Source: Patescibacteria group bacterium (GTDB lineage: Bacteria > Patescibacteriota > Microgenomatia > 0-14-0-10-38-17). From it: a stretch of DNA of 64,000 nt. Positions 20,263 to 61,000 of the stretch are shown piece after piece (the first letter of the stretch is position 1; each line of letters begins with the position of its first letter). Location: positions 124,140-188,139 of the forward strand of contig JBMNNJ010000002.1 in assembly GCA_050953885.1 (NCBI GenBank). The letters are read 5' to 3'. A program made the position numbers and the translations under genes. The notes beneath the pieces were generated by a model. The model ran no database searches, had not been told where the DNA came from, and saw only the letters and a program-made list of their open reading frames with translations.

Positions 20263-21261
20263 TTAATGATTTTTTATCTTTCTTAACCCCATTTTTTCTT
20301 TTACCTCATCCATCGTTTTCTTGGCCAAGGGAAGAGCGTAATCTCGCCCTTCTTTCAAGATCGCTGCCACGGCTTCAGGATTTTCCTCAAAATAATGTCG
20401 CCTTTGCCGAAAAGGTTCAAGCTCCTGATAAATCGCCTCCGCCAGCTCACTCTTAAGAGAGGCATATTTTATCCCTTTTCCTAAATATTCCTTTTCATAT
20501 TCTTCCCGCCGTTTTTTTCCTAAAAAAAGAGCGGCCATGGCCAGCAAATTAGCCACCCCGCCTTCTTTGGGTACTTCTTTCCCTTTCCCCAAATCAGTCG
20601 GCACCCGGGCTATTTTTCGGTTAATCTCCTCCTTGCTGTCAGCTAAGAAAATGGCGCTGCCAGCTACTGACTTACTCATCTTCCCCTCTCCTGTCAACGA
20701 AGGAACAATCTCGCCTACAATTGCATAACGTTGGGGTTCGGGAAAAGTTTTCCCAAACATCTGGTTAAACCGCCGGGCAATTTCCCGGCTCACCTCCAAA
20801 TGAGGCTCCTGATCTTTACCCACCGGTACCAACTCGGCTTTGTAAAGCAAAATGTCAGCTGCCATTAAAACCGGGTAATAAAGCAAGCCTAAATTAATAT
20901 AACCCGGCTGTTCTTTCTTTTTATCTTTATAAGTAGGCAGCTGCTCCAAACGGGAAACAGGAAAAATAGTCCCCAAAAGATAAGCAAGTTCCACATGATA
21001 GGGAACTTCGGACTGAATCATCAAATGGGCCTTCTTGGGGTCAATTCCTGCCCCTAAATAATCAAGCACTACTTGATAAATATCCTCCTGCAGGGTTGCC
21101 GGCTGATAAGGCGAGGTAATGGTATGAAGATCAACGACCGAAAAAATACAATCGTATTTATCCTGTAGGTCTACCATTCCCTTCATCGCTCCCAAATAAT
21201 TCCCCAAATGAAGCCGGCCGGTAGCTCTGATCCCTGAAAAAACCCGTTTTTTTTCTCCCAT
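20263..21261 (-). CDS. trpS: Tryptophan--tRNA ligase
   Basis: 332 aa class I aaRS with an HLGN (HIGH-like) motif and KMSKS. Confidence 0.75.
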   Translation of the reverse strand: MGEKKRVFSGIRATGRLHLGNYLGAMKGMVDLQDKYDCIFSVVDLHTITSPYQPATLQEDIYQVVLDYLGAGIDPKKAHLMIQSEVPYHVELAYLLGTIFPVSRLEQLPTYKDKKKEQPGYINLGLLYYPVLMAADILLYKAELVPVGKDQEPHLEVSREIARRFNQMFGKTFPEPQRYAIVGEIVPSLTGEGKMSKSVAGSAIFLADSKEEINRKIARVPTDLGKGKEVPKEGGVANLLAMAALFLGKKRREEYEKEYLGKGIKYASLKSELAEAIYQELEPFRQRRHYFEENPEAVAAILKEGRDYALPLAKKTMDEVKEKMGLRKIKNH

Positions 21262-21292
21262 TCCTTAATTATAACACCGAAGGAAAAGAAAG

Positions 21293-22540
21293 CTATGTGC
21301 GGTGTCCAGGACATGCTATACACTTCATGAGGTTTGGGTATGAGGAATATGTAAGAAGAGTGTTAAAATTGGTGGGTGTTAATTTTGAGAGTGTAGTAAA
21401 GGGGGTGAAAAAGCATGAGTCCTGGAATCCATGGAATCCGGATAGACTACAAGGAATTAAGAAAGATTAATCCAGAAGCAGCCAGACAAACAGTGATTGA
21501 GTATCTAAAGACTAATGGCCACAACATTGCTGATACCGCCAGGGTTTTTAGGGTCAACAGGACAGTGGTTTATGACATCTTGGCAAAAAGCAAAGAGGGC
21601 AATCTTAAAGACAGACCCAAGATACCAAAACACCAGCCCAACAAGACACCAGCCAAGACAGAAGGTAAAGTCATTAAGGCCAAGAACAAAACCCACCTGG
21701 GGCCAAAAAGATTATCACGCTACCTTGAGAAACATGAAGGGATTCTTGTTCCTCCAGGAACAATCAGGCACATTCTAAGGAGGAATAAAGACAGGCTTAC
21801 TTACAAACTAAAATCAAACAAGAGAAGAAAACAACCAAGGGAGTTTGTTGACTGGTATTCAGCTAAACCTTTTGAGATTGTCCAAATGGATATCAAATTC
21901 ATTAGGGATCAGAAAGCCCTGACTAAAAAGCAAATTATTCATCTTAACCAATATGATATTCCCAACTATCAATGGGGAGCCCTGGATGTTAACTCTAGGT
22001 TTAAACTAATTGCTTATTCCAAGGAAAAATCTTGGACTAATGGTTTGTGTTTTTACCTTTGGACTATTTCCTGGTTAAGGTCTCATGGGGTTAAATCAGA
22101 GATTGCCTTTACTGTTGATAATGGTGAGGAATTTGGGGGTAGATCCTGGTTGAAGGTCAAAGAGTTAAGAAAACTGATCAGGGGTTTTGGCTGTAGATTA
22201 ATCCAGAACCACAAAGGTCATCCTGAGGAGAATGCTCATTTGGAAAGAAGCCATAGAACCGATGACGAAGAGTTCTACATTCCCAGGGTCCTACAGATTA
22301 AGAGCAAAAAAGATCTCTTGAATGAGGCCCTGGGTTACATTTATTACTACAACAATGTCCGGGAACACTCATCCTTAGACTATCAAATACCCTACCAATA
22401 TCTGAAAATGCAATTACCAGAGATTGATGATAACATACGTTATGTACAACCGATTATCCTTGATGATGTCTCGGTAAAACTAGGCCCTTGGAGTGGATAC
22501 AATGTCTTGGCACATCACCGCTAAATTATTAAATGGCTAA
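21293..22540 (+). mobile_element. IS481-family-like insertion sequence (single DDE transposase); right boundary approximate
   Basis: The left end TGTGCGGTGTCCAGGA is shared with a truncated second copy at 25667. It encodes a 369-aa HTH + rve-type DDE transposase. Terminal inverted repeats were not resolved by eye. Confidence 0.6.
21415..22524 (+). CDS. DDE transposase (N-terminal HTH + integrase-core rve domain), IS481-like
   Basis: N-terminal HTH (IADTARVFRVNRTVVYDIL). The core has WGALDVN (D), TVDNGEEF (D) and HLERSHRTDDEEFY (E) in an rve-like arrangement. Confidence 0.7.
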   Translation: MSPGIHGIRIDYKELRKINPEAARQTVIEYLKTNGHNIADTARVFRVNRTVVYDILAKSKEGNLKDRPKIPKHQPNKTPAKTEGKVIKAKNKTHLGPKRLSRYLEKHEGILVPPGTIRHILRRNKDRLTYKLKSNKRRKQPREFVDWYSAKPFEIVQMDIKFIRDQKALTKKQIIHLNQYDIPNYQWGALDVNSRFKLIAYSKEKSWTNGLCFYLWTISWLRSHGVKSEIAFTVDNGEEFGGRSWLKVKELRKLIRGFGCRLIQNHKGHPEENAHLERSHRTDDEEFYIPRVLQIKSKKDLLNEALGYIYYYNNVREHSSLDYQIPYQYLKMQLPEIDDNIRYVQPIILDDVSVKLGPWSGYNVLAHHR

Positions 22541-22551
22541 ACTCCCCTAAA

Positions 22552-22672
22552 AAAGTCAAAAGTTAAAATTTAAAAGTCAAAATTACAAGTAAAAACCTAA
22601 AAGTGAAGCAAAAAAACTTTTAACTTTTAAATTTTGAATTTTGAATTTTGACTTTTGAATTATATACTTAAT
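22552..22672. repeat. AT-rich palindromic element (AAAAGTCAAAAGTTAAAATTT… / …AAATTTTGAATTTTGACTTTT)
   Basis: Left and right arms are reverse complements. It lies between the IS right end and the tRNA-Met 3' end. Confidence 0.65.
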
Positions 22673-22685
22673 ACTAGCGCCTTTG

Positions 22686-22759
22686 TGGCAGGGGTCGGAT
22701 TCGAACCGACGACCGGGCGGTTATGATTCGCCTGCTCTAACCAGCTGAGCTACCCTGCC
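22686..22759 (-). tRNA. tRNA-Met (anticodon CAT); elongator type most likely, an Ile2 (lysidine) type cannot be excluded
   Basis: Manual cloverleaf. Acceptor GGCAGGG/CCCTGCC, D-stem GCTC/GAGC, anticodon stem GGCGA/CCGCC with loop ATCATAA, T-arm GTCGG-TTCGAAT-CCGAC, discriminator A, no encoded CCA. Confidence 0.8.
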
Positions 22760-22993
22760 CTCATTTAAAAAACTGGCTTTATTTTATCAAATCTTGTTAA
22801 TTTTACCAAGTTTTTAAGATGGTAATCTGCCGGAGCATTGTCTTTGCTCCAAGACCCTAATTTTTGGCAAGGCCTATCCTTGTGAAACAAAAAGCTGGCT
22901 TCTTCTTAATCTTCCCCGAGCTTAAAAACCCTTCTTTTATATTACCGGGAAAAAGGAGGCATGTCGCAAATGTATTTGACTTATACAAAAAAA

Positions 22994-23022
22994 TTGACAT
23001 TTGGAAAGTCTAAGTTTATAAT
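22994..23022 (+). promoter_or_regulatory. Consensus sigma70-type promoter (TTGACA-N17-TATAAT) reading into tRNA-fMet
   Basis: -35 TTGACA at 22994-22999 and -10 TATAAT at 23017-23022, both perfect, with a 17-bp spacer. The tRNA starts at 23065. Confidence 0.5.
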
Positions 23023-23064
23023 TGGACAAGGTGGAAAAAGGAAATATAAGATTAATTTATGACG

Positions 23065-23134
23065 CGCGGGGTAGTGTACGGCAGCACGTGAGGCTCATAA
23101 TCTCACAGACCAGGTTCGACCCCTGGCCCCGCAA
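23065..23134 (+). tRNA. tRNA-Met (anticodon CAT), initiator-like (fMet): 5' CGCGGGG…CCCCGCAA 3' with a C1·A72 mismatch
   Basis: The acceptor matches the E. coli tRNA-fMet ends (CGCGGGG / CCCCGCA-A). Anticodon loop is CTCATAA. T-arm CCAGG-TTCGACC-CCTGG. The D-loop is short, and the anticodon stem lacks the canonical three G-C pairs. Confidence 0.65.
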
Positions 23135-23141
23135 CTAAACA

Positions 23142-23495
23142 TCATTTTTGGCCAAAAAAAAGCTCCCACCACTGCCGCCAAACAGGAGAAGGAGGAGAAA
23201 AAGCCGTTTCGGCCTTTACCTCTTCTTCTTGGGGCAAAACAATCATCATTTCTCCCTCTTTGCTCATCCCCAAACTATTCCGCGCTTCTTTTTCCAAAAA
23301 GGAATCGCTCTCAACATAATCCAAATAAGCTCTTAGCTCCTCGTTTTCCTTCTCAATTTGGGCTAAATTTTTCTTCTCTTCCTGCCATTTTTTGGCCCGT
23401 CCCACCAAATCCGCCGTTCTTTGCGACAAACTTATAATGGCCATTATTAAAATCGCCAAAAGCAAAAACCGAAAAATTCTTTTAACCGTTGACAT
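23142..23495 (-). CDS. FtsB/DivIC-like septum formation initiator
   Basis: 117 aa with an N-terminal TM (FRFLLLAILIMAIISL) followed by a coiled coil (KKNLAQIEKENEELRAYLDYVE). Confidence 0.55.
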   Translation of the reverse strand: MSTVKRIFRFLLLAILIMAIISLSQRTADLVGRAKKWQEEKKNLAQIEKENEELRAYLDYVESDSFLEKEARNSLGMSKEGEMMIVLPQEEEVKAETAFSPPSPVWRQWWELFFGQK

Positions 23496-23525
23496 TCTAA
23501 CCGCAAAAATGCTATTATAAGGTTT

Positions 23526-24407
23526 ATGAAGAAAACCGATAATCTCACCTCATTAACAAAGGCTCAAGAACGTTTTGTCGCCCATCTTAAAGCGCAAAAA
23601 CGCTCTACCAACACCATCATAGCATACCAAAACGATATCGGGCAATTAATCAGTTTTTTGGCAGAAAAAAACATCAAAGAGGCCGGCGAGGTAAACGCCG
23701 CTCATATTGAAGATTTTAAAAAAGATCTGCTGACGGAGAAAAAATATACCAAAAAAACGGTTTCCCGCAAACTTAACTCTATCAAGTCGTTTTTCCGCTT
23801 CTTAAAAGATAACGGCGTTGTTACCGAAGACCCCAGCCTCAAGGTGGCTCATCCCAAAGTGAGCCAAAAGCCGCCACGAATTCTTTCATCCTTGGAGTAC
23901 CGGGCTCTGCGCGATGCTTGCCGCAATGACAACCGCGCTTATGCAATTGTGGAACTTATGCTACAGGCTGGTCTACGCATTTCCGAAGTGGCTAATTTGG
24001 AACTTAACGATATCACCGAAAACACTATTATCGTCCGTGCCTATGAATCCCATCCCCAACGGGTTGTTCCCCTAAATCGCGCCGCTAAAGAGGCGGTAAG
24101 GCGCTATATCGAAAATGATCGGCCGAAAACCAACCGCACCAAAAAAATCTTTGTTACCAAAACCGGCCGGCCGCTTTTGGTGCGCAACATCAGAAACAAT
24201 CTTAACCGTTATTTTGAACTGGCGGGCATTAAAAACGCCTATGTCAATAATTTACGCGATACCTTCGTGGTTAGCCAGCTGGAAGCCAATGTTCCCCTTA
24301 ATGTTATTTCCCAAATTATCGGCCACAAAAGAATTTCCTCAACCGAAAAATATCTTGCCTTGGTAAAAAACCGCGAAGAGGAGAAAATAAAACTTAAGGA
24401 ACTTTAA
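23526..24407 (+). CDS. Tyrosine recombinase (XerC/XerD-like integrase family)
   Basis: N-terminal SAM-like domain (NTIIAYQNDIGQLISFL). C-terminal GLRISEV (Arg I), LR (Arg II) and GHKRISSTEKYLAL (His/Tyr). The HxxR box reads NNLR, so the His is not conserved. Confidence 0.7.
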   Translation: MKKTDNLTSLTKAQERFVAHLKAQKRSTNTIIAYQNDIGQLISFLAEKNIKEAGEVNAAHIEDFKKDLLTEKKYTKKTVSRKLNSIKSFFRFLKDNGVVTEDPSLKVAHPKVSQKPPRILSSLEYRALRDACRNDNRAYAIVELMLQAGLRISEVANLELNDITENTIIVRAYESHPQRVVPLNRAAKEAVRRYIENDRPKTNRTKKIFVTKTGRPLLVRNIRNNLNRYFELAGIKNAYVNNLRDTFVVSQLEANVPLNVISQIIGHKRISSTEKYLALVKNREEEKIKLKEL

Positions 24408-24801
24408 AACCTTCTCTTGCTTCAGTCTGATGGGTACCCGATAAAATGGGCACAGCTTGAAGATGCCGCCGGTCGTTCTCAAAAAACAGTTTCTAGACGA
24501 AGAAAGTGTTTCCCAAAAATCGGGTACTTGACAAGGACCGTATAAAAAACCAAAGTTGAAACATATGCCCTGTCCGGTAAGGCTACCTAGCCATTTACCC
24601 TTGCCGCTTTTTTAATTTTTCCTTGTCATTGGCTAAAAAATATTCAGGAGTAGGATCCTTCAAGTCCCTTGGAACTTGAAATCTGACAACTTCAATTCCC
24701 CGATCAGGAGAAGCTAACCCGTCAATTAAAGTAGATTTTCACAGCAAGAAATGCCCTCAAAGCAAACAACCTTTGGGCTTCCCGATTCTTTTTCTTTATG
24801 A

Positions 24802-25365
24802 TTAAACTGTTCTACCATTTGTCAGATATTTGGCTAGATTAACCCAACAATCAGCATTCCAAAGGCTTAACCTGACATCTTCAGGAAGTGTTGCCAATGG
24901 AGTTTTATAGCCATCCGGAATATAAAGCATATCAATAGTTGAACCATTCACCCCTTCTGCTTTAAAGGCTAGATTTCCATAATTTTCAGATAAAAATGTT
25001 TTTGGTTCTCCTCCGGGCTCACAATAAGCCACACAAATTGGAGATCTCACCCGCCGGTTTTCCTTACCTTCCATCATTTTTATAAGTTCCTGAGGGGTTA
25101 ACCATTGATTAATATATTTAATAAAAGGTCCTGGAAAACCATTTAGTGCTTCAATGTAATATCCTGCGTCAGTCTTTACCACCGGCTTCCCCAATTTGTT
25201 GGCCGCGTACTGAGCAGAATACCCGGCGATTATTTCCACATTCGTATCCTGTATTTCCGGAGTTTCAAGCTTTGTACCGATTAAATTTATCGGATACCCT
25301 TGAATTTTTTCCCTGGCCTGATCAAGTTTTTTCTGATTTCCGGTAATAAAAATTAAATCAAGCAT
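24802..25365 (-). CDS. Ham1/RdgB-like non-canonical purine NTP pyrophosphatase (tentative)
   Basis: 187 aa. ITGNQKKL near the N-terminus resembles the Ham1 TGNxxK motif, and the C-terminus carries FPGPF. Weak assignment. Confidence 0.4.
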   Translation of the reverse strand: MLDLIFITGNQKKLDQAREKIQGYPINLIGTKLETPEIQDTNVEIIAGYSAQYAANKLGKPVVKTDAGYYIEALNGFPGPFIKYINQWLTPQELIKMMEGKENRRVRSPICVAYCEPGGEPKTFLSENYGNLAFKAEGVNGSTIDMLYIPDGYKTPLATLPEDVRLSLWNADCWVNLAKYLTNGRTV

Positions 25366-25666
25366 GTATCCTCCTTAATAAATATTAAACAAAATCCCCA
25401 TGTGGCTTATGACTAAGTTTCAAATAACAGATAATTTCATTATAATAAAGGTCAATGCACCAGATACAGTTATGATTACAAAAATTCACCAGATCAAGTT
25501 CAACCATTACCGGAATAATGTCCTTTCCCTCCGCCAAATCAATAAATCTCTCAAGATGGTTTATATATTTATATGGGCTAAAAGTATCTAGCGTTTTTAT
25601 TGTAATAATGATTGCTAATACAGTGGTTTCTATTATAAACTATATTTACCGATATTCAATTGGGCT

Positions 25667-26035
25667 TTGTGCGGTGTCCAGGAGATGCGATACACTTCAT
25701 GAGGTTTGGGCATGAGGAACATGTAAGAAGAGTGTTAAAATTGGTGGGTGTTAATTTTGAGAGTGTAGTAAAGGGGGTGAAAAAGCATGAGTCCTGGAAT
25801 CCATGGAATCCGGATAGACGACAAGGAGTTAAAAGATTAATCCAGAAGCAGCCAGACAAACAGTGATTGAGTATCTAAAGACTATAATGGCCACAACATT
25901 GCTGATACCGCCAGGGTTTTTAGGGTCAACAGGACAGTGGTTTATGACATCTTGGCAAAAAGCAAAGAGGGCAATCTTAAAGACAGACCCAAGATACCAA
26001 AACACCAGCCAAGACAGAAGATAAAGTCATTCGCA
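25667..26035 (+). pseudogene. Truncated, degenerate second copy of the IS481-like element (5' ~370 bp only)
   Basis: Near-identical to 21293-21665 with point changes, an in-frame TAA, a small insertion and a 15-bp deletion. It ends ~30 bp from the tRNA-Ile 3' end. Confidence 0.7.
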
Positions 26036-26064
26036 ATCTCGTGTTTACCTGCCCAGCGCACGGG

Positions 26065-26136
26065 TGCGCCTGCTTGGATTCGAACCAAGGACGTCTACTT
26101 TATAAGAGTAGCGCTCTACCACTGAGCTACAGGCGC
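26065..26136 (-). tRNA. tRNA-Ile (anticodon TAT; UAU reads AUA)
   Basis: Manual cloverleaf. Acceptor GCGCCTG/CAGGCGC, D-arm GCTC-AGTGGTA-GAGC, anticodon stem CTACT/AGTAG with loop CTTATAA, T-arm CTTGG-TTCGAAT-CCAAG, discriminator A. Confidence 0.75.
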
Positions 26137-26223
26137 AACGAAAGTTAAAAGTTTTTTAGATCGGACTTCTATCTGCTCTTTATTATACTTTATACTCTAT
26201 ACTTTATACACTACACATTAGAT

Positions 26224-28560
26224 TTACAGCCTTGCCCGCCGCGCCACCTCCGCTTCCACCAGTGCCCGGTCCCGACCATACTTTAGCCGCGAAAGCTCTT
26301 TAATTTTTTCCGCCAGTTCGGGATTATCCAAGGCTTTTTCCCGACTCATGTCTTTAGTTAAATCAATAGAAAAAGGCCGCACCGGCTCATTATTAACAAT
26401 TGTCTTCACATAAGCGTTAAAGCGCTCGATGTTTAAAAGATCATTCTCACCAAAAACCGGGGCAAACTCATGCTGGAGATAGGAAGCATCGGCCACCCCC
26501 ACCCGAAAAGCGATAAGAGTGCCCACATTGCCAAAAACCGCATTTTTAACCTCTTCTTCCATTTGGCCAATAAACTGGTTGGCGACCGTTAAATTAAGAT
26601 GATATTTACGCGCCTCGGATAAAATTTGGGCAAAATCAGGGGTGGCAAAGTTTTGAAACTCGTCAACATACAAATAAAAATCGCGACGCTGGGATTCGGG
26701 AACATCTTGCCGACTCATCGCGGCAATTAAAATCCGCGGCACCAAAATTAATCCCAAAAAGCTGGAATTTTCCTCACCAATTTTCCCCTTCGCCAAATTA
26801 ATCAATAAAATTTTTCCCTCATCCATTACTTTTCTAAAATCAAAAGCCGACTGGGATTGGCCGATGATATTGCGCATCATCGGATCGGTAACAAAGCGGC
26901 CAAACTTGGAAACAATATAATCCAAGACTTCGCTTTTATGAAAATCTGATGTTTGGGCAATCTGATCTGTCCAGTAGCGACGCACCATCGGATCGCTAAC
27001 CTTTGGTAAAATCTCCTGAACGAAAGAGGCATCGGTTAACGCCCGCACTACCTCCACAAAGCTTGAGCCCGGTTCGGCCATTACGGTGAGCATCGCATTT
27101 CTTATCGCGTGCTCAAACCGCGGCCCAATAATACCGGTTTTATAAGGATCATAGAGCTTATACATCAAATTGATAATTGAGGAAACCACAAAACTTTTTT
27201 CCTCCTCGGTGCGCGCTTCCAGTAAATTTAACCCCATCGGCCGGCTGGTATCGGAGGGATCAAAATAAATCACGTCTTCCGCCCGTTCGGGAGGAATCCG
27301 GGCTAAAACCTGCTCTACCGTATCATGGGGATCAATAAAGCAAACCCCCTTGCCTTCCTCAATATCCTGCAGAATCATCTGCTTTAAAAGCTCCGACTTG
27401 CCCGTACCGGTTTTCCCAATTACATAAATATGGCGCCGCCGATCATCGTCGCCAATACAAACCGGCCGCACCTGCCCCCGGTAAATGCTTTTTCCCAAAT
27501 ACAAACCGGTGGTGGGCACTTCCGGCGGCACCGGGGCGCGCTTGGCATTAAGCCAATAAATGTTCGGCGTTTCAATCGTTTTGTTAGGGAAATGAAAAAT
27601 TGTCGCCAACTCCGCCGTACTTAAAATAATTGGTGTTGTCAAAAGACGCCAGAGAGAACGATAGCGATAAATAAAATCAATCATAAACATTTTCTTAAAA
27701 CGAATTTTTTTGGAGGAAAGGCCATTTTGATCAGAGTCAAATTGGGCAAAAGCGCTTTTAATATTTCCCAAGTGATTTTTTGCCTCTTCCAGTGTCGGCG
27801 CGCAGACCACCACCCGAATCTCGGTTTCAAATCCCGGCTTGCTACACTTTTCCTCAATTTTCTCCATCGCCTTGGGGTCCATTTTAAAACTGGCTTTTTC
27901 CGGGTCGGCTTCTTTTTTCTTGCTTTGGGCCAAAAATTCCCGACCTCGTTTTTGCCACTTGCTGCCTACGGGAGCGGCCAAAATTTGAATTGCCGCCGCC
28001 TCTCCCTCCTTGAGTTTGGAAAGAGCCGAAGTAATTGAGGAAAGGGGATCAAGAGAAAAATCCTGATAAGTTTTAATTGGGTAAAAAGGAGAATTACGAA
28101 ATTGAAAAGCGGCATAAGCCACTTTACCATTTTTGAAAAAAAGATTATATTCATCAACCACGGTAATTATCGCCGTGGGATAAAAAGCGTAAACTTGCCG
28201 CTCTACCAATTCCTGCTTTCCTCGCGGCACACCGATATAAAAACGAATATCCTCCGGCCGACCAACAATTTCCAAAGTAAAATATTCGAGCGGCTTTAAA
28301 AAAGAAAAGCGACCGCCTTTTTTAAGCGAATGCAGGCTTTGAAAAAGCTGTTCGGCGGCGTCAATTTTAATCTCATTATCCTTGGGAAGAGCCACCTGCA
28401 GTAAAACTAAATTTAAAGAGCGTTCTTCCCGGTCGCGCTCCCGCCACCAGCAAAAAAGTAAATACCCCAAAAAGGAAAGCGCCAAAAGGCACAGAATAAT
28501 AATTATGCCCGAAATGAGATAGTGGGTAAGTAGGGAAATAAGATCGTTTAAAGGGGACAT
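26224..28560 (-). CDS. Membrane-anchored FtsK/HerA/TraG-superfamily P-loop ATPase (type IV secretion coupling-protein-like, TraG/TraD/VirD4 or DUF87 type)
   Basis: 778 aa with an N-terminal TM, Walker A IGKTGTGKSELLK and Walker B LYVDEFQNF. The architecture is typical of T4SS-DNA_transf / HerA-like ATPases. The exact family was not resolved. Confidence 0.5.
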   Translation of the reverse strand: MSPLNDLISLLTHYLISGIIIILCLLALSFLGYLLFCWWRERDREERSLNLVLLQVALPKDNEIKIDAAEQLFQSLHSLKKGGRFSFLKPLEYFTLEIVGRPEDIRFYIGVPRGKQELVERQVYAFYPTAIITVVDEYNLFFKNGKVAYAAFQFRNSPFYPIKTYQDFSLDPLSSITSALSKLKEGEAAAIQILAAPVGSKWQKRGREFLAQSKKKEADPEKASFKMDPKAMEKIEEKCSKPGFETEIRVVVCAPTLEEAKNHLGNIKSAFAQFDSDQNGLSSKKIRFKKMFMIDFIYRYRSLWRLLTTPIILSTAELATIFHFPNKTIETPNIYWLNAKRAPVPPEVPTTGLYLGKSIYRGQVRPVCIGDDDRRRHIYVIGKTGTGKSELLKQMILQDIEEGKGVCFIDPHDTVEQVLARIPPERAEDVIYFDPSDTSRPMGLNLLEARTEEEKSFVVSSIINLMYKLYDPYKTGIIGPRFEHAIRNAMLTVMAEPGSSFVEVVRALTDASFVQEILPKVSDPMVRRYWTDQIAQTSDFHKSEVLDYIVSKFGRFVTDPMMRNIIGQSQSAFDFRKVMDEGKILLINLAKGKIGEENSSFLGLILVPRILIAAMSRQDVPESQRRDFYLYVDEFQNFATPDFAQILSEARKYHLNLTVANQFIGQMEEEVKNAVFGNVGTLIAFRVGVADASYLQHEFAPVFGENDLLNIERFNAYVKTIVNNEPVRPFSIDLTKDMSREKALDNPELAEKIKELSRLKYGRDRALVEAEVARRARL

Positions 28561-28584
28561 ATTCGTAATGTAAAAGTCACTCCG

Positions 28585-28860
28585 CCGGCGGGCGGAGCAA
28601 AATTAAAAATCAGTAATTCGTAATATGTAATAAAAAAAGCGCAAAAAGCAAAACGCAAAGAGCAAAACCTAAATCAAAGTTCAAAAATATTTTTAATTTT
28701 TGGTTTTGGTTTTTGAGCTTGGTTTTGCATTTTACTCTTTGCACTTTAATCTTGTTTTCTCACGAGTTACTAACTTTTTACACTTTACTTTTGAATTTTG
28801 ACTTGTAATTTTGATTTAGGTTTTAATCTTTTCCGCCAGCTGGCGGATTGACTTTTCGTT
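28585..28860. repeat. AT-rich palindromic element plus GC palindrome CCGCCAGCTGGCGG (28833-28846)
   Basis: AAAGCAAAACGCAAAGAGCAAAACCTAAATCAAAG … CTTTGCACTTTAATC arms. It includes the TTGAGCTTGGTTTTGCATTTTA segment also found at 62402. Confidence 0.65.
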
Positions 28861-28877
28861 TTACATTAATTTAGCGT

Positions 28878-29261
28878 TTATCCTGTGTGCTTCCCCGCAA
28901 ACCCCACTTTTCCCCCCAAAAGCTTTATTAACCGTTTTGACCATTCCGCCAGCCAGCGCAGGGAATCCTCAATTTTTGCTTCAAGCCCCGCTTGATATTC
29001 TGCCGCTGTTATGGGCAGAATAATCTCTGGCGCTACCGGCGCGGGCGGGGAAACCAAAACTTCGCCGGTTTGATCGTCTAAAACCGGCGTTGGCAAAACA
29101 TACTGTTCCTTTTCTAATTTCTCAATTCCTGTTTCAGGCGCCACTTCTGGTTCCCGACCCACCTCAATAATCGGCACTCTTTCCTCACTAAAGCCATTTT
29201 CTGCCTTTGCTTCCCGCTCTTTACCGGGCAAGCCGGTTATATCATCAGCCATATTCTTCAT
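28878..29261 (-). CDS. Hypothetical acidic protein
   Basis: 127 aa, Glu/Pro-rich, no recognisable domain. Confidence 0.45.
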   Translation of the reverse strand: MKNMADDITGLPGKEREAKAENGFSEERVPIIEVGREPEVAPETGIEKLEKEQYVLPTPVLDDQTGEVLVSPPAPVAPEIILPITAAEYQAGLEAKIEDSLRWLAEWSKRLIKLLGGKVGFAGKHTG

Positions 29262-29417
29262 TATAGCAAAGATGGCGGAAAATTAGTTGTTGGAAAATGG
29301 TAATAGAAATTGGAAATTAGAAATTCCCCCGTCAGGGCGGGGGGTGAAATTAAGAAATTAAAAATTGGGGAAAAAATTTGTTTCATTATTGCGGGCGTAG
29401 GCAATGCGCCCTTGCCT

Positions 29418-29465
29418 CTCATTCGCTCATTCGCGTCCATTCGTTTCTCATTCGCGTTAATTCGC
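29418..29465 (+). repeat. ATTCG-rich 48-bp repeat element (copy c), ~65 bp upstream of the methyltransferase gene
   Basis: TCATTCGCTCATTCGCGTCCATTCGTTTCTCATTCGCGTTAATTCGCG, followed by AATTTAACAATTTAGC. Confidence 0.7.
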
Positions 29466-29528
29466 GTATTTTAGTAATTTAACAATTTAGCTCAAAAACT
29501 TTTTTTATGAGAAAATAGGAAAAAAGCA

Positions 29529-30803
29529 ATGGCAAAAGAAAAACATCAATACTATTTTGTTTTAGGCACCAATCACTCCCTGTGTAAAGCGGATATTGTT
29601 AATGTTCTTGTCCGGGAAAAAGCTAAATTTTCAATTTTGGAGGCTTCGGAGGAAATTTTAATTATCGAAACAAAGGGGAGAATTGACACCGAAAAGCTTA
29701 TCAACACGCTGGGAAGCGCGGTAAAAATAGGCGAGATTTTTAAAAAATACGAGCCAAAAAATTTCCCGGCTCATTTCTTAAAAGAAGTTAACACCGAAAA
29801 ATTCAAAAGTTTTTTCTTAAAAGAGGCTTGCTCCCATTTTGCTATCAGTGTCTACAATGGCGGCGGCGGTTTTAAAAGCCTGAACCAGCTTTGGTTTTCC
29901 TGCCCTAAAATTGCCTCTTACCTTAACCAAAAAACAAAAGTCCGCTATCTGCACTGGCGGGAAAGAAAAATCCCGAGTTTCATTGTGGACCAAAAAAAAC
30001 TTTTAAAAACCGGCTTTGAGCTGATGCTTGCCAATGGCAGACAAAATATTTATGTTGGCAAAACCACCGCTTTGCAGGATTATCAAAGTTATAGTTTCCG
30101 CGACTACCAGCGGCCCCAAAAAGACCCTAAGTCGGGGATGATCCCGCCAAAATTGGCAAAAATAATGATTAATTTGGCCGGCAAGGAGAAAAACCAAACC
30201 TTTTTGGATCCTTTTTGCGGCAGCGGCACTTTTCTTCAGGAGCTAATTCTTTTAGGCTACAAAAACATTATCGGCACCGATAAAAGCCCAAGAGCCATCG
30301 AGGCAACGAAAAAAAATCTTGATTGGCTCTTTAGTCAGTATTCTTTAAATAAAAAAGATTACTCTCTTAAGATTTTTGAAAGTGATGTGCGCACTCTTTC
30401 TTCTAAACTGCCTTCCCAAAGCGTTGACGCTATCGCCAGCGAACCACATTTAGGTTCACCACAGGCAAAATATTTTTCTCCTCAGCAAATAAGGCAGGAA
30501 ATTGACCGCCTTTCTTCTTTTTATCTTAGCGCCTTTGCGGAGTTAAAACCGGTGCTTAAAAAAGACGCCACCATGGTGATTATTTTTCCTGTTTTCAGGC
30601 TTAAAAACCAATTCTTCCAACTTGAGATTTTGGAGAAACTACGCCAATTAGGATTTTTCCCCCAAGATTTTGTGAGCCCAAAGATTCCCGGCGCTAAGCT
30701 TTTAAACTTAAAAATCACTCCTCGCCACTCCCTTATCTTCTTCCACCCCGGCCAAACCATTTCCCGGGAAATTTTTATCTTTAAAACCAGTCATTTGAAA
30801 TAA
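29529..30803 (+). CDS. SAM-dependent methyltransferase (UPF0020/Trm11-RlmL-like, possible THUMP-type RNA methylase) with atypical motif IV
   Basis: Motif I DPFCGSGTFL. Motif IV reads SEPH instead of (D/N)PPY. N-terminal ~160 aa is a possible THUMP-like domain. Confidence 0.55.
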   Translation: MAKEKHQYYFVLGTNHSLCKADIVNVLVREKAKFSILEASEEILIIETKGRIDTEKLINTLGSAVKIGEIFKKYEPKNFPAHFLKEVNTEKFKSFFLKEACSHFAISVYNGGGGFKSLNQLWFSCPKIASYLNQKTKVRYLHWRERKIPSFIVDQKKLLKTGFELMLANGRQNIYVGKTTALQDYQSYSFRDYQRPQKDPKSGMIPPKLAKIMINLAGKEKNQTFLDPFCGSGTFLQELILLGYKNIIGTDKSPRAIEATKKNLDWLFSQYSLNKKDYSLKIFESDVRTLSSKLPSQSVDAIASEPHLGSPQAKYFSPQQIRQEIDRLSSFYLSAFAELKPVLKKDATMVIIFPVFRLKNQFFQLEILEKLRQLGFFPQDFVSPKIPGAKLLNLKITPRHSLIFFHPGQTISREIFIFKTSHLK

Positions 30804-31469: not shown

Positions 31470-34400
31470 CTAACACTTGCTGTATCCGCAATAAAGGCAT
31501 TTATGGCAACCCTCCTCGTAAATTAAGGCTGCCCGGCCACAGGAAGGGCAAAGATCGCGCTTACCGCTCTTGGCAAAAAGCGGCGCCTGCTCGCCAACCG
31601 CCTCCACTACCTCTCCGTCTTTGCCTAAATATTCATTCAAAACTTGAGCAATACCATCGGCCAAAGAACGCACTTTTTTCTTCCCAAAACCAACGCTTTG
31701 GCTACCGCCAATCCCCTCCAGCTGGTCAATCACTTGCGCCAAAACTTCCTGGGGAGAAAAAGAAGAGGCGATGCGCAAATTAAGCGAAATCAGCCGACCA
31801 ATCGCCTCGGCATCGGCGGCAATATCCGAACCGGCCTTACCCACATTAACAAAAACCTCCAAAGGCTGATTATCGCCATTAGCGTTAATCGTCACAAAAG
31901 CGGTTCCCACCGGCGTCTCTACCCGATAAGTTACCCCCACCACCTTGCGCGGCCGTTCTTTAATTAAAGGCAAGGAAACAGTTTTCTTTTCCTCCTCTTT
32001 GCCAACACCGGCATATAAAACCTGTTCGCTCCGGCAACCATCGCGGAAAATGGTAATTCCCAAACAGCCAAGTTTGTAAGCCAAAAGATAAGCTTTTTCC
32101 ACTTCCTCCACTCCCACTTCATGACGTAAATTAACCGTTTTGGAAACGGCATTATCCACTCCTTTTTGAAAAGCCGCCTGCATCCTGATATGGCCCTCGG
32201 GAGAAATTTCGTGGGCGGTGGCAAAAACTTTCTTTAATTTTGGCGGCAAGCTCTTAATTTCTCCCAACACCCCCGCTTCCTCAACTTCTCTGATTTGTTT
32301 GGCGCTCAAGCGATATTTTTTTGCCGCCGCCAAGAAGTAGGGATTAACAAAGGTTAATTCCCGACCGTTAGCCTTATGTTTGAAAGCCAGGGCAAAGGCC
32401 GGCTCAATGCCCGAAGAGGCCCCGGCGATAATGCTAATCGAACCGGTAGGAGCAATGGTTGTTAAGGTAGCGTTGCGCAGGGCCGGCCCGTTTTTGTAAA
32501 TGCTTTTGGAAAAATTTGGAAAGGGGCCGCGCACTTTGGCCAAATTCTGGCTTTCAAGATGCGCCTCGTCATGAATAAAACGCATTAATTTTTCGGCCAA
32601 TTTTTGCGCCTCTCGCGACTCATAGGGAATTTCTAGAAAAAACAGGGCATCGGCCCAACCCATTACCCCCAAGCCGATGCGCCGGTTTAATAGCGTTGCC
32701 TGGCGCACCTCTTCTAAGGGATAAGGATTTGCCTCCACCACGTCATCCAAAAACCGCACCGCCAATCGTACCACACCTCGCAACGCCTCCCAATCAAAAT
32801 CATTCTTTTTCAAGAAATTAACCAAATTAATACTCCCTAAATTACATGACTCGTTAGGATAAAGAGGTTGCTCGCCACAATTATGGATTAAGACCCCATT
32901 GGCAAAAAAGGCATTAGCTCCGGGGACCGAAAGATCATAAACTTTCTCCTTTCGACCCGTTTTCTCTACCAAAAGAACTTTATCTTTAAAATCACGCTGG
33001 TAAACTCCCTGTTTTTTTATCGCTTCTATTTGTTCAGAGTGAACTTTATTCCAAAAGCCAACTTTTTTAATAAAGGTAATTAAGTTTTGCCGGCTAATAT
33101 TAATCTCGAAACAAACCCCATCAGTTAAATAATCCCTCTTTTCCCCTTTAATATTTTGATAAGTAAATGCCCTCCGGGGGGCACGAGAGCGATCATAAAT
33201 CTTGCTAAAAATCCCCAAGTTTAAGAGAAGCAATTGAACTTGCCTTAGCAGTTTTAGTGATTTAGAAGTAAGACGAATATATTTATTACCCTTTTCCTTT
33301 TGATCAGCAATCGTCCCATCCGCGGTAAAAAGACCCTGGAGAAAACCGACCACCGTCTCTTTAGGTGCTCCAAAAATGGCTGCCGGCACTTCTTTTTCGG
33401 CCGCTTTTACCGGCTTTACCCCTAATTTCCTAAAGAAATCTCTTAAATAAGCACTGTGATAAGAAAGATGCCAAACTCCATTTTCTCTTTTAACCAGCTT
33501 GACCTTTCTCCCATACCATTGGTTGATAATTCCCGCTATCTCCTCCATCAAAAGTTTATTTTTCTCTCCAAAAGTAAAGCCAACCCGACCATTATCTTTA
33601 TCATCCCTAAGCCAACCATCACCAACTAGCAACCCTAAAACCAAACCCAACTCATAAGACCATTTTTGGGGGAAATTAAATCTATAAACTCTCCCGTTAT
33701 CACCCTGAACCTCATTTTTAATCTCAAAGGGAAGCTCTTTATTTTCAGAAAAGCCGCCTTCTTGGGCTTGGAGATAAACTTGGTCCTCGCCGGCTTTCAG
33801 CTCGGAAAGTGCCACCCACCCTCGGGGGGTAAAAAATTGGTGGTCAGCAGTCGCCTTAACCACCACCCCTGATTCGGTAACCAGCTGCCAAACCTCTTTT
33901 TCCCCTCTTTCCCAAAAACCGTTCACCGCTTCGTAGGAAAAATCCTTTTTTCCAAGAACTCGATTGTCCACGAACACCGCCACTGGCTCTTTCTTCCGAA
34001 CTATCTGCCCAATGGAAAGCAAACCCCTATCGGTAGCGACTAAGGTTGAACCGACCAAACATGGGTTAGTTGACTCTATCGGTCCCATTTGGGGTACCGG
34101 ATTGGCCGAACCCGCATTCGCCCGATCAATAAAGAAAAGCCCGGGATCGCCCGTTTTCCAAGCCTCTTCAATAATTTTTCCAAAAACCTGCCGCGCCTTA
34201 AGGCTGCCTGCCTTTTTACCAGTATGGGGATCAATTAACGAGTAGTCTTTATCTTCCAAAACTGCTTTCATAAAGCGATCGGTAGCCGCCACGGAAAGGT
34301 TAAAATTGGTAATCCCCCCCTCTTCTTTGCAAACAATAAATTCCAAAATATCGGGATGATCCACCCGTAAAATGCCCATATTCGCCCCCCGGCGCCGGCC

Positions 34401-60699: not shown

Positions 60700-61000
60700 C
60701 AGACGCCTGTCAAGAGGAAAAATAGTAGGGGCGGACCCATGTGTCCGCCCGTCAAGGGGTTCGTGATTGTCTATTTAAAACCATTAATCGGGTCGACACA
60801 TGGGTCGACCCCTACAAATTCCTTATCTGCCCGCTGGCGGACAAAATCATCCCCGTAGCTGTCATTCCTGAATTAAATTCAGGACAGGCTCTGACGAAAG
60901 TGTCATCCTGACGAAAGTCAGGATCTGTTTTGATTCTGAATCAAGTTCAGAATGACGCTAATCGTGGCCGTCATTCTGACGAATTCGCCAGCTAACAGAC
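60700..61000. repeat. Cluster of GC-rich hairpins: paired CATG-centred palindromes (GGGCGGACCCATGTGTCCGCCC; GGGTCGACACATGGGTCGACCC) followed by four tandem related hairpin units (TCCTGAATT/AATTCAGGA; ATCCTGAC/GTCAGGAT; ATTCTGAA/TTCAGAAT; GTCATTCTGAC…)
   Basis: Read directly from the sequence. ~300 bp without a plausible ORF between vapB and the next gene. Confidence 0.6.

What the first reader, a model, noticed from the sequence alone, without database searches (positions are those of the whole stretch)
21293..28560. tRNA / IS / recombinase / T4SS-like ATPase hotspot
Within 7 kb lie several mobility-linked features.
- An intact IS481-like element sits beside a tRNA-Met 3' end.
- Divergent tRNA-Met and tRNA-fMet genes are present.
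- There is an FtsB-like gene.
- A tyrosine recombinase follows.
- A ~390-bp stretch (24410-24800) has no ORF.
- There is a Ham1-like gene.
- A ~300-bp very AT-rich stretch (25370-25665) follows.
- A truncated IS481-like 5' fragment abuts a tRNA-Ile(UAU) 3' end.
- A large TM-anchored TraG/VirD4/HerA-like ATPase closes the stretch.

tRNA 3' ends are classic integration sites. A tyrosine recombinase plus a coupling-protein-like ATPase is the minimal signature of an integrative/conjugative or pilus-mediated DNA-transfer module. The region may be a decayed integrative element, or a DNA-uptake system of the kind proposed for episymbiotic small-genome bacteria.
Basis: inference. Interest (0 to 1): 0.55.

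Follow-up and report, generated by a model that had tools for sequence, protein, structure and literature searches.

The report
Conserved chromosome block peppered with IS
This stretch is not a decayed conjugative element: it is a housekeeping gene block shared by a whole class of ultra-small (CPR) bacteria, into which an insertion sequence and a few decaying accessory genes have landed, and its "conjugation-like" ATPase is a vertically inherited, very strongly conserved gene of still unknown role.

Summary
The ICE or decayed integrative element reading fails.

**Synteny.** The order RNR – CobAT – small protein – ATPase – tRNA-Ile(UAU) – Xer – FtsB – two tRNA-Met – TrpRS – FtsH recurs in species representatives across Microgenomatia (80 loci examined).

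**No mobile-element signature.**
- No tRNA 3'-end repeat (att) exists in the 64 kb.
- Composition is native.
- The ATPase is the most conserved gene in the block (median 67% identity, against 62% for FtsH).

**What is really mobile or decayed.**
- A 1,229-bp IS481-like element (21296-22524) is absent from a 99%-identical sibling strain and present at a second site elsewhere.
- An older truncated copy lies at 25668-26031.
- A decaying accessory islet (24408-26061) sits between tRNA-Ile and xer.
- The "no-ORF" stretch is a frameshifted kinase-like pseudogene.
- The "AT-rich" stretch is a radical-SAM gene remnant.

**The ATPase.**
- It has a TM anchor, a VirB4-N-terminal-like domain (DUF8128) and a VirD4/TrwB-like motor.
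- It is paired in 72 of 77 relatives with an unannotated small upstream protein.
- It belongs to the known "orphan T4CP homologues" of Patescibacteria.
- No relaxase or T4SS gene is nearby.
- Its function is unresolved.

The parts
21296..22524 (+). Intact IS481-like insertion sequence (about 1,229 bp). Its transposase ORF is 21415-22524. It has imperfect terminal inverted repeats starting TGTGCGGTG.
   Evidence: NCBIfam IS481 gives E 5e-39, and Pfam rve_3 is above its cut-off. The element is absent from the 99%-identical contig L001, which has an empty site. An identical copy sits at another locus, L091, and fixes the left end at 21296. The right end, about 22524, is read from the sequence.
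22525..22684 (.). AT-rich (GC 0.22) palindromic spacer of AAAGT/ACTTT repeats between the IS right end and the tRNA-Met 3' end.
22685..22759 (-). Elongator-type tRNA-Met(CAT).
   Evidence: ARAGORN and Rfam, 61.9 bits. Conserved at this place in relatives.
23065..23135 (+). Initiator tRNA-Met (C1/A72 mismatch). This allele has no intron. A perfect TTGACA-17-TATAAT promoter lies at 22994-23022.
   Evidence: The sibling allele in L001 carries a group I intron.
23142..23495 (-). FtsB/DivIC-like divisome protein, divergent from xer with 30 bp between the two start codons.
   Evidence: Pfam DivIC, E 1.8e-11. Syntenic in relatives.
23526..24407 (+). Xer-like tyrosine recombinase, a resident chromosomal gene.
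   Evidence: Pfam Phage_integrase 93 bits. XerD, XerC and XerA models give E 1e-44 to 4e-48 but stay below their equivalog cut-offs. An orthologue lies downstream of the ATPase in 33 of 52 loci with at least 4 kb of flank. The conserved catalytic pattern is R..K..NDLR..GH..Y. Codon usage is native.
24457..24818 (-). Frameshifted pseudogene of a P-loop (thymidylate/deoxynucleoside-kinase-like) protein.
   Evidence: tblastn with the intact 201-aa L006 gene finds two frames with stop codons, E 1e-23 and 2e-12. Pfam hits of the intact gene. No Rfam match.
24802..25365 (-). Intact Ham1/RdgB-type non-canonical NTP pyrophosphatase. It is part of the accessory islet. GC3 is 0.30.
   Evidence: Pfam Ham1p_like, E 2e-22. 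99% identical to the L006 copy. Found next to the ATPase only in L006 among the 80 related loci. GC3.
25388..25600 (-). Remnant of a radical-SAM/SPASM gene: the N-terminal 56 aa with CxxxCxxC joined to the C-terminal ~53 aa by an internal deletion.
   Evidence: tblastn with the intact 349-aa L006 gene. Pfam Radical_SAM + SPASM on the intact gene. GC 0.304.
25668..26031 (+). Truncated 5' fragment of the same IS481-like element: left inverted repeat plus about the first 380 bp, with small indels.
   Evidence: 338/349 identical to the full copy over the aligned part, which ends at 26010; after a 14-nt deletion the match resumes to 26031 (94% over 34 nt). Present in all sibling contigs L001-L003.
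26062..26137 (-). tRNA-Ile(UAU), the ancestral downstream neighbour of the ATPase gene.
   Evidence: ARAGORN and Rfam, 75.7 bits. Found within about 7 kb downstream of the ATPase in 68 of 80 related loci, on the ATPase strand in 65 of them and within 3.3 kb in 67.
26224..28560 (-). 778-aa membrane-anchored ATPase. It has a TM helix (~3-40), a VirB4-NTD-like domain (DUF8128, ~50-320) and a VirD4/TrwB-like P-loop motor with an all-alpha insert (~350-735).
28878..29261 (-). 127-aa unannotated partner protein. The N-terminus is low-complexity and variable in length. The conserved C-terminal motif is LPLT..GL..S.RWLAEW..R.IK.
   Evidence: A homologue lies directly upstream of the ATPase in 72 of 77 related loci, usually 0-20 nt away. 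At least 752 database homologues, all 'hypothetical' with no Pfam. No PDB or Pfam hit.

Best explanation
The 7-kb stretch is not one element. It is a vertically inherited housekeeping neighbourhood of a Microgenomatia (CPR/Patescibacteria; closest named relatives are Candidatus Shapirobacteria) chromosome, and three layers of junk have accumulated in it.

1. A DDE-type IS481-like insertion sequence transposed recently into the trpS/tRNA-Met spacer. This is shown: the site is empty in a sibling strain, and an identical copy sits at another locus.
2. An older copy of the same IS was truncated to its first ~380 bp next to tRNA-Ile (shown).
3. A small accessory islet (radical-SAM, Ham1, kinase) lies in the variable slot between the tRNA-Ile 3' end and the 3' end of xer. 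It is decaying by deletion and frameshift, and only Ham1 is still intact (shown by comparison with L006).

The tyrosine recombinase is the resident Xer-type recombinase, encoded back-to-back with ftsB. Its most likely job is chromosome dimer resolution (inferred from family similarity and conserved position).

The ATPase and the small protein upstream of it form a conserved two-gene unit. It is a domesticated relative of the coupling-type ATPases of monoderm and archaeal conjugative plasmids, anchored in the membrane by one N-terminal helix.

Its most likely mode of action is a hexameric VirD4/VirB4-type NTP-driven translocation motor serving a non-conjugative, housekeeping transfer function. 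It may work together with the chromosomal T4SS that Patescibacteria encode elsewhere. Substrate and direction are unknown, and this step is inferred.
For: **Synteny**
- A genome scan with the ATPase alignment returned 80 loci from different species (at least 587 matched).
- tblastn and ARAGORN on them show the recurring order RNR-CobAT-small protein-ATPase-tRNA-Ile(TAT)-Xer-FtsB-tRNA-Met x2-TrpRS-FtsH-5'3'exo-GT4.
- tRNA-Ile follows the ATPase in 68 of 80 loci.
- Xer is within 10 kb in 33 of 52 loci with enough flank.
- The small protein is upstream in 72 of 77 loci.

**Conservation**
- Median identity is 67% for the ATPase, 62% for FtsH, 57% for TrpRS and 52% for Xer.
- The ATPase is the higher of the pair in 11/11, 13/14 and 44/44 paired loci.

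**No att sites**
- The 22-nt 3' end of each tRNA occurs once in the window, even allowing 3 mismatches.
- The flanking 82-nt repeat has 8 dispersed copies.

**Composition**
- Codon-usage z is +0.8 for the ATPase and -0.7 for xer.
- The transposase is the outlier of the block, at -1.8.

**IS polymorphism**.

**Pseudogenes**.

**Fold**
- Walker A (GKTGTGKS) and Walker B (VDEF) are invariant.

**Plasmid relatives**
- 385 plasmid records hold relatives, all below 60% identity.
- In B. subtilis plasmid NZ_CP032854 the full-length homologue (25% identity over ~700 aa, E 8e-50) sits directly upstream of a Replic_Relax gene, in a TcpE/AAA_10 conjugation cluster.

**Literature**
- Relaxases are almost absent, and the authors raise exaptation as a possibility.
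Against: - The function of the ATPase pair is not shown by any result here.
- Its fold and its plasmid relatives are conjugation-type, so a DNA-transfer role is not excluded.
- Xer scores are below the NCBIfam equivalog cut-offs, and His-II is replaced by Asn. 'Dimer resolution' is therefore an inference, and no dif site was located.
- In one clade (many Gottesmanbacteria loci) xer is not within 10 kb of the ATPase, so the block is not universal.
- The slot between tRNA-Ile and xer varies from about 50 bp to 6.5 kb.
- Some relatives carry partial copies of tRNA 3' ends just downstream of the orthologous tRNAs. Site-specific integration at these tRNAs may therefore occur in the class, even though no trace is left in this window.
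- L006 places the islet on the other side of tRNA-Ile, but across a scaffold gap.
Confidence: 0.8

Rival explanations
1. Xer plus the ATPase are the remains of an integrative/conjugative element that integrated at a tRNA 3' end and then decayed.
For: - A tyrosine recombinase and a T4SS-type ATPase lie within 4 kb, flanked by tRNAs and IS copies.
- The ATPase's nearest characterised-context relatives are on conjugative-type plasmids.
Against: - The block is syntenic class-wide.
- The ATPase is more conserved than FtsH.
- There are no att repeats.
- Composition is native.
- No relaxase, VirB4 cluster or other conjugation gene is in the 64 kb.
- The two genes are convergent and separated by an ancestral tRNA.
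Confidence: 0.03
2. Only the 1.65-kb interval 24408-26061 (radical-SAM remnant, Ham1, kinase pseudogene, IS fragment) is a relic. It would be the remains of a small genomic islet that entered by site-specific integration at the tRNA-Ile(UAU) 3' end. That integration may have been catalysed by the neighbouring Xer-like recombinase or by a lost integrase.
For: - The interval is absent from minimal relatives, where tRNA-Ile and xer are about 50-130 bp apart.
- The slot size ranges from 48 to 6,574 bp and holds toxin-antitoxin and accessory genes.
- Ham1 has low GC3, 0.30.
- L028, L038, L051 and L073 have partial tRNA-Ile 3' copies 30-130 nt downstream of the gene.
- The L006 contig ends exactly at tRNA-Ile and has a gap where the other copy would be.
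Against: - No second copy of the tRNA-Ile 3' end is in the window.
- No integrase was seen in a read-through of the ORFs in the slots of 13 relatives; no Pfam scan was run on them.
- Insertions also occur between the ATPase and tRNA-Ile, so ordinary indel flux or IS-mediated events could explain the variability.
- IS fragments flank the islet both here and in L006.
Confidence: 0.2
3. The ATPase pair is a housekeeping DNA pump of the divisome. It would be a functional substitute for, or partner of, FtsK that clears DNA from the septum and cooperates with the neighbouring Xer and FtsB.
For: - It is a membrane-anchored member of the FtsK-HerA superfamily.
- It is vertically inherited and extremely conserved.
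- It lies next to xer and ftsB in most Microgenomatia loci.
Against: - The C-terminal ~40 residues of the model are helices only, which does not look like a gamma (winged-helix) domain; no separate fold search of that tail was run.
- The ATPase and xer are convergent, not co-transcribed.
- The whole 20-kb region is syntenic, so adjacency carries little specific information.
- Many Gottesmanbacteria loci lack the adjacency.
- Whether these genomes have a canonical ftsK was not testable here (one search was uninformative).
Confidence: 0.08
4. The ATPase pair powers uptake of host DNA or nucleotides. This is the reader's second option: an episymbiont import machine analogous to the archaeal Ced system.
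For: - There are very weak NCBIfam hits to CedB and CedD (E 3e-3, 6e-4).
- The fold is conjugation-type with no relaxase nearby.
- CPR bacteria lack nucleotide synthesis (statement in PMC12857230).
Against: - The Ced hits are confined to the Walker A region and are far below the cut-offs.
- In Southlakia, competence depends on ComEC and is not essential (PMC12857230).
- No pilus or channel gene is adjacent.
Confidence: 0.1

Closest known systems
Type IV coupling proteins (VirD4/TrwB/TraD/DotL)
   Same: - It has an N-terminal membrane anchor.
- It has a P-loop motor with an all-alpha insertion.
- It passes the Pfam gathering scores of T4SS-DNA_transf, TraG-D_C and TrwB_AAD_bind, though only just.
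- A full-length plasmid homologue sits next to a relaxase-type gene.
   Different: - It carries an extra ~270-residue VirB4-NTD-like domain between the anchor and the motor.
- It has one predicted TM helix rather than two.
- There is no relaxase, oriT or T4SS gene nearby.
- It is chromosomal, vertically inherited and far more conserved than plasmid T4CPs.
- NCBIfam TraD and VirD4 models are far below their cut-offs.
VirB4/TrwK ATPases of type IV secretion systems
   Same: - It has the two-domain NTD + CTD architecture.
- TrwK is the best full-length Foldseek hit (E 9e-14).
   Different: - The VirB4_CagE model scores 19 bits against a 643-bit cut-off.
- There are no VirB3, VirB6 or VirB8 neighbours.
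- According to PMC12102498, the true Patescibacteria virB4 lies near dnaA/dnaN/rnpA, which is a different locus.
'Orphan' VirD4-type T4CP homologues of Patescibacteria (Quinonero-Coronel et al. 2025, PMC12102498)
   Same: - The same kind of gene: about two per genome, almost never near virB4, with no relaxase.
- Exaptation is suspected.
- A TM-less paralogue is seen here in L016.
   Different: - In the passages read here (sections 12 and 14 and the term search), that paper does not mention the VirB4-like N-domain, the conserved small upstream partner or the class-wide synteny seen here.
- Identity of the families is inferred from annotation, not tested with their profiles.
IS481 family insertion sequences
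   Same: - It encodes a single DDE (rve) transposase with N-terminal HTH domains.
- It is ~1.2 kb long with imperfect terminal inverted repeats.
- The ORF runs into the right repeat.
   Different: - It scores below the NCBIfam equivalog cut-off (134.5 against 224 bits).
- The target-site duplication could not be fixed, because the flank differs between strains.
XerC/XerD/XerA chromosome-dimer recombinases
   Same: - It has the SAM-like N-domain plus a catalytic domain.
- It has R, K, R, H and Y catalytic residues.
- Its best family similarities are XerD, XerC and XerA.
   Different: - It is below all the equivalog cut-offs.
- His-II is a conserved Asn.
- No dif site or partner recombinase was identified.

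Membership tests
Integrative conjugative element / integrated genomic island | Direct repeats (att) formed by duplication of the tRNA 3' end at the island borders | tested here: not met
   Each tRNA 3' 22-mer occurs once in 64 kb, allowing up to 3 mismatches. The 82-nt flanking repeat is a dispersed 8-copy intergenic repeat.
Integrative conjugative element / integrated genomic island | Presence/absence of the block among related genomes; atypical composition | tested here: not met
   The block is syntenic across Microgenomatia. Codon usage and GC are native for xer and the ATPase. Only the IS is polymorphic.
Integrative conjugative element / integrated genomic island | Relaxase plus mating-pair-formation genes (VirB4 etc.) linked to the coupling protein | tested here: not met
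   Pfam annotation of the genes covered by the three look-ups (about window 8.6-60 kb) shows none.
VirD4-type coupling protein (T4CP) | Membrane anchor + Walker A/B motor + all-alpha domain; family HMM above threshold | tested here: met
VirD4-type coupling protein (T4CP) | Works with a relaxase/relaxosome and a T4SS channel (genetic linkage) | tested here: not met
   No relaxase or T4SS gene was found in the annotated part of the window, and none is among the conserved neighbours of the 80 related loci; the other ORFs of those loci were not scanned. NCBIfam TraD and VirD4 equivalogs are far below cut-off.
VirB4 ATPase | VirB4 N-terminal domain fold plus C-terminal motor | tested here: met
VirB4 ATPase | Sequence membership (TIGR00929 / CagE_TrbE_VirB) and VirB3/6/8 neighbours | tested here: not met
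   TIGR00929 scores 19.3 bits against 643. The conserved neighbours are RNR, CobAT, the small protein, tRNA-Ile and xer.
FtsK/SpoIIIE DNA translocase | FtsK alpha/beta motor and gamma (KOPS/XerD-binding) domain | tested here: not met
IS481 family | DDE/rve transposase matching the family model; terminal inverted repeats; evidence of mobility | tested here: inconclusive
   It is the best family hit (E 5e-39) but below the equivalog cut-off. Inverted repeats are visible. Mobility is shown by an empty site and a second site. The target-site duplication is unresolved.
XerC/D-type dimer-resolution recombinase | Family HMM above cut-off; full catalytic set; cognate dif site | tested here: inconclusive
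   Scores of 152-164 bits are below the cut-offs of 220-335. The R-K-(N)-R-H-Y pattern is conserved in 45 sequences. dif was not searched genome-wide. There is no GC-skew switch in the window.

The most novel reading that the evidence does not exclude
The small protein and the TM-anchored VirB4-NTD/VirD4-motor ATPase form a domesticated, relaxase-independent translocation machine that is essential to Microgenomatia. Because it is kept beside xer and ftsB, it might act on the cell's own chromosome at division, as a conjugation-derived substitute for FtsK, rather than in cell-to-cell transfer.
Probability: 0.08. Interest if true: 0.75.

Novelty: new member of a known kind. Interest (0 to 1): 0.3.

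Why it matters
**For the scan.** This is a cautionary case. 'tRNA + tyrosine recombinase + T4SS-like ATPase + IS' looks like an ICE in a single window, but it dissolves once relatives are compared.

**For CPR biology.** The useful residue is a sharper description of one of the widespread 'orphan T4CP' genes of Patescibacteria.
- In Microgenomatia it is the most conserved gene of its neighbourhood, above FtsH.
- It carries a VirB4-like N-domain (Pfam DUF8128).
- It is almost always preceded by an unannotated ~120-150-aa partner with an RWLAEW motif.
- It sits in a fixed chromosomal context.

These points give concrete handles (a partner, a domain map and invariant residues) for testing what a conjugation-type motor does in bacteria that have almost no relaxases.

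Tried and rejected
- **Rfam** on the window and, permissively, on 21000-29600 found only the tRNAs. The 390-bp ORF-free stretch is therefore not a known RNA.
- **att search** with the three tRNA 3' ends found nothing.
- **The 82-nt direct repeat** flanking the region (20171 / 29408) looked like a possible att pair. It has 8 dispersed copies, several directly upstream of minus-strand genes.
- **Sequence-only PDB search** with the ATPase profile matched only the Walker A region.
- **Foldseek against afdb50** was unavailable.
- **The small partner protein** gave no PDB or Pfam hit, by profile or per member. The homologue search returned only 'hypothetical' proteins.
This is uninformative, because the loci all cover the same region.
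- **Literature searches** for FtsK in CPR, and for VirD4/VirB4 terms in Wang et al. 2023, gave nothing usable. 'DUF8128' occurs in no paper of the library.
- **A composite transposon** formed by the two IS copies was considered and rejected. The second copy keeps only its left end.
- **A dif site beside xer**, as with XerS/XerH, was considered. It was not pursued beyond noting that cumulative GC skew is monotonic across the window, so no terminus is present.
- **The L002 junction** joins the IS interior to the ftsH interior in inverted orientation. I treated it as a probable assembly chimera.

Full report
**1. Observation**

ARAGORN and Rfam find three tRNAs:
- tRNA-Met(CAT) at 22685-22759 (-).
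- A second CAT tRNA at 23065-23135 (+). Its first and last acceptor positions do not pair (C1/A72), which is the bacterial initiator hallmark.
- tRNA-Ile(TAT) at 26062-26137 (-).

The protein-coding ORFs are:
- A 369-aa DDE transposase. Its best family is IS481 (E 5e-39), below the NCBIfam equivalog cut-off. Pfam rve_3 is above its cut-off.
- A 117-aa DivIC/FtsB protein.
- A 293-aa tyrosine recombinase. Its best similarities are XerD, XerC and XerA (E 1e-44 to 4e-48), all below the equivalog cut-offs.
- A 187-aa Ham1 protein.
- A 778-aa ATPase with marginal but above-threshold Pfam hits to T4SS-DNA_transf, TraG-D_C, DUF87 and TrwB_AAD_bind.

The second IS copy (25668-26031) is 97% identical to the start of the first over the 349 aligned positions.

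**2. The mobile parts are small and separable**

Contigs from other samples encode the identical ATPase (L001-L003). They align with the window at 99-100% identity.

L001 lacks the whole IS.
- Homology runs to window 21295 and resumes at the tRNA-Met.
- An identical transposase gene with an identical left end sits beside a PIN/MazE pair on another contig, L091. This fixes the IS left end at 21296 (TGTGCGGTG...) and shows the element is multicopy.
- The truncated copy is present in all siblings, so it is older.

The two 'empty' stretches are explained by L006, a 94%-identical relative.
- L006 carries intact genes for a radical-SAM/SPASM enzyme (349 aa), Ham1 and a P-loop kinase-like protein (201 aa) in a row.
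- In the window the radical-SAM gene is reduced to its two ends (25388-25600).
- The kinase gene is frameshifted and truncated (24457-24818).
- Rfam finds no RNA in either stretch.

**3. The block as a whole is ancestral, not inserted**

An alignment of 29 ATPase homologues was used to scan one genome per species. At least 587 places encode a relative, and 80 loci were fetched. They carry names from Shapiro-, Gottesman-, Levy-, Woese-, Beckwith-, Curtiss- and Chisholmbacteria.

tblastn with the window's proteins and ARAGORN on these loci show one recurring order: RNR, CobAT, small protein, ATPase, tRNA-Ile(TAT), convergent xer, divergent ftsB, two tRNA-Met, trpS, ftsH, 5'-3' exonuclease, GT4.
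- tRNA-Ile(TAT) follows the ATPase in 68 of 80 loci. Six of the 12 exceptions have less than 1 kb of flank.
- xer is found in 33 of the 52 loci with at least 4 kb of downstream flank.
- The loci without xer are largely one clade, in which the RNR-CobAT-ATPase-tRNA-Ile part is still kept.

The ATPase is the most conserved protein of the neighbourhood:

| Protein | Median identity |
|---|---|
| ATPase | 67% |
| FtsH | 62% |
| TrpRS | 57% |
| Xer | 52% |

Further checks point the same way.
- None of the three tRNA 3' ends has a second copy in the 64 kb.
- The one long direct repeat bracketing the region belongs to a dispersed CGAAT-rich intergenic repeat with 8 copies.
- GC, GC3 and synonymous codon usage of xer and the ATPase are typical of the window. 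Only the transposase (z -1.8) and the GC3 of Ham1 (0.30) stand out.
- No relaxase, VirB4 or other T4SS gene is annotated in the part of the window covered by the look-ups, about 8.6-60 kb.

**4. What remains of the 'integration hotspot' idea**

The interval between the ATPase and xer varies from 48 bp to 6.6 kb among relatives.
- It holds toxin-antitoxin modules, an IPP-isomerase-like gene, transporters and similar genes. No integrase was seen on reading the ORFs.
- In minimal relatives, tRNA-Ile and xer are about 50-130 bp apart.
- The window's 1.65 kb between them (IS fragment, radical-SAM remnant, Ham1, kinase pseudogene) is therefore lineage-specific accessory DNA in a variable slot directly 3' of a tRNA.
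- Four relatives carry a partial copy of the tRNA-Ile 3' end 30-130 nt downstream of the gene.
- One relative has a perfect 39-bp x 8.6 tandem array of a tRNA-Met 3' fragment.

Site-specific events at these tRNAs may therefore occur in the class. The window keeps no such scar, and IS fragments flank the islet both here and in L006. I rate tRNA-targeted integration of the islet as a minority rival (0.2).

**5. The ATPase**

AlphaFold2 on the alignment gives a usable model (pLDDT 77) with three parts:
- A long N-terminal hydrophobic helix (3-40), followed by a basic stretch.
- An alpha/beta domain (about 50-320). This is the region the database labels PF26449/DUF8128.
- A P-loop domain (about 350-735) with a ~130-residue all-alpha insertion.

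The fold searches gave the following.
- Foldseek against the PDB ranks TrwK/VirB4 of R388 first over the full length (E 9e-14). HerA and TrwB follow.

So the protein combines a VirD4-like anchor and motor with a VirB4-like N-domain. Walker A and B are invariant.

A profile of the N-domain finds 3,813 cluster representatives at E <= 1e-3. Among the 150 listed, many are 800-1,100 aa long with the domain near the N-terminus; most of the rest are shorter than 600 aa.

Distant full-length relatives (22-32% identity) occur on 385 plasmids, mainly of Streptomyces, Bacillus, Staphylococcus, Clostridium, haloarchaea and Sulfolobus, and in 41 phage records (33 of them Bacillus phages, such as phage G).

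In B. subtilis plasmid NZ_CP032854 the homologue has these properties:
- It is 25% identical over ~700 aa (E 8e-50).
- It lies immediately upstream of a Replic_Relax gene.
- It sits in a cluster with TcpE and an AAA_10 (VirB4-type) ATPase, which is the coupling-protein position.

The published survey of Patescibacteria T4SS reports the following (PMC12102498):
- 5,713 VirD4-type homologues in 2,918 genomes, with only 148 near virB4.
- Almost no relaxases.
- virB4 itself near dnaA/dnaN.
- The possibility of exaptation.

The window's gene fits that description. It is a known kind of gene of unknown role.

**6. The partner**

In 72 of 77 loci a 110-190-aa ORF related to window 28878-29261 ends 0-20 nt before the ATPase start.
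- It has a low-complexity, length-variable N-terminus.
- Its conserved C-terminal motif is LPLT..GL..S.RWLAEW(C).R.IK.
- It has no TM segment, no Pfam hit and no PDB hit.
- It has at least 752 database homologues, all 'hypothetical'.
- In the window the two genes are separated by 317 bp of AT-rich repeats and small GC hairpins. In L006 the same spacer holds a 100-bp palindromic repeat.

**7. Mechanism**

Shown:
- IS transposition into the trpS/tRNA-Met spacer.
- Truncation of an older IS copy.
- Decay of the islet.
- Vertical inheritance and strong constraint of the ATPase pair and of xer/ftsB.

Inferred:
- xer is the chromosome's Xer-type recombinase.
- The ATPase is a membrane-bound hexameric NTP-driven translocation motor, descended from monoderm conjugation coupling ATPases. 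It now serves a housekeeping, non-conjugative role, possibly with the T4SS encoded elsewhere.

I could not determine its substrate. The FtsK-substitute reading (0.08) and the DNA-import reading (0.1) remain open but have little specific support.

**8. Verdict**

Its main claim, a decayed ICE, is refuted.

Novelty is low: a new IS481-like member, and a typical member of the known orphan T4CP-like family of Patescibacteria. A few descriptive additions come out of the analysis: the VirB4-like fold of DUF8128, the conserved partner gene and the class-wide synteny.

Noticed in passing
L001 15476-15660 (sibling strain); window allele 23065-23135: The initiator tRNA-Met of a 99%-identical strain carries a 185-nt group I intron in its anticodon loop (Rfam RF00028, 66.6 bits, E 3e-16). 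The window's allele has no intron. ARAGORN misses the interrupted gene.
   Followed up: partly
L001 15791-16465; corresponds to window ~22813-22988: The sibling strain has a 224-aa ORF with an N-terminal HTH between the two tRNA-Met genes, possibly a free-standing homing-endonuclease-like gene. It is absent from the window, and the surrounding spacer is only ~86% identical.
   Followed up: partly
L070 14975-15309 (relative): A perfect 39-bp x 8.6 tandem array abuts a tRNA-Met. Each unit contains ~20 nt of the tRNA 3' end. L028, L038, L051 and L073 have single partial copies of the tRNA-Ile(TAT) 3' end 30-130 nt downstream of the gene. Nothing comparable is in the window.
   Followed up: partly
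window 6730, 20184, 29421, 31388, 53425, 55451, 57432, 57750: A dispersed ~80-nt intergenic repeat is built of CGAAT/ATTCG units about 10 nt apart. Three copies lie in the same orientation directly upstream of the minus-strand genes ftsH, the ATPase partner gene and cobAT. It could be a shared regulatory element or a small mobile repeat.
   Followed up: partly
window 60725-60824; L006 3210-3309 and 6054-6153: A 100-bp repeat rich in GC palindromes (GGGGCGGACCCATGTGTCCGCCC ... GGGTCGACACATGGGTCGACCCC) looks MITE-like. In L006 one copy sits in the spacer between the partner gene and the ATPase.
   Followed up: no
window 31470-34922 and 35248-39222: The ribonucleotide reductase and a 1,324-aa UvrD/AddA-like helicase-nuclease both carry intein domains; the RNR intein also has a LAGLIDADG endonuclease domain (precomputed Pfam hits). 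This is more selfish DNA in the same neighbourhood.
   Followed up: no
window 23489-23518 and 22994-23022: A near-perfect extended -10 promoter (TTGACA-18-TG-TATTAT) ends 8 nt before the xer ATG, which suggests a leaderless mRNA. A perfect TTGACA-17-TATAAT precedes the initiator tRNA.
   Followed up: no
window 23526-24407 and 44 orthologues: The Microgenomatia Xer family has a conserved N-D-L-R where tyrosine recombinases normally have H-x-L-R (His-II replaced by Asn).
   Followed up: partly
window 26062-26137 and 68 related loci: tRNA-Ile with a UAU anticodon is conserved class-wide next to the ATPase gene. To my knowledge this is uncommon in bacteria, which mostly read AUA with a lysidine-modified CAU tRNA.
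   Followed up: no
L016 256-2436 and 2426-3031: A TM-less paralogue of the ATPase (34% identity, same N-domain + motor) is followed by a 201-aa membrane protein with DUF5667. This appears to be a second, differently partnered version of the machine in the same genome.
   Followed up: partly
L002 16411-16420 (window 22141 joined to 19326): One sibling contig joins the interior of the IS to the interior of ftsH in inverted orientation. It is either an assembly chimera at the repeat or an IS-mediated inversion in a subpopulation.
   Followed up: no
L089 (Halomontanus plasmid NZ_CP135525) 6896-11108: In haloarchaeal plasmids the match to the ATPase spans two adjacent genes: a 378-aa 'hypothetical' protein and a 1,027-aa 'conjugative DNA transfer family' protein. 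The N-domain and the motor appear to be encoded separately there.
   Followed up: no
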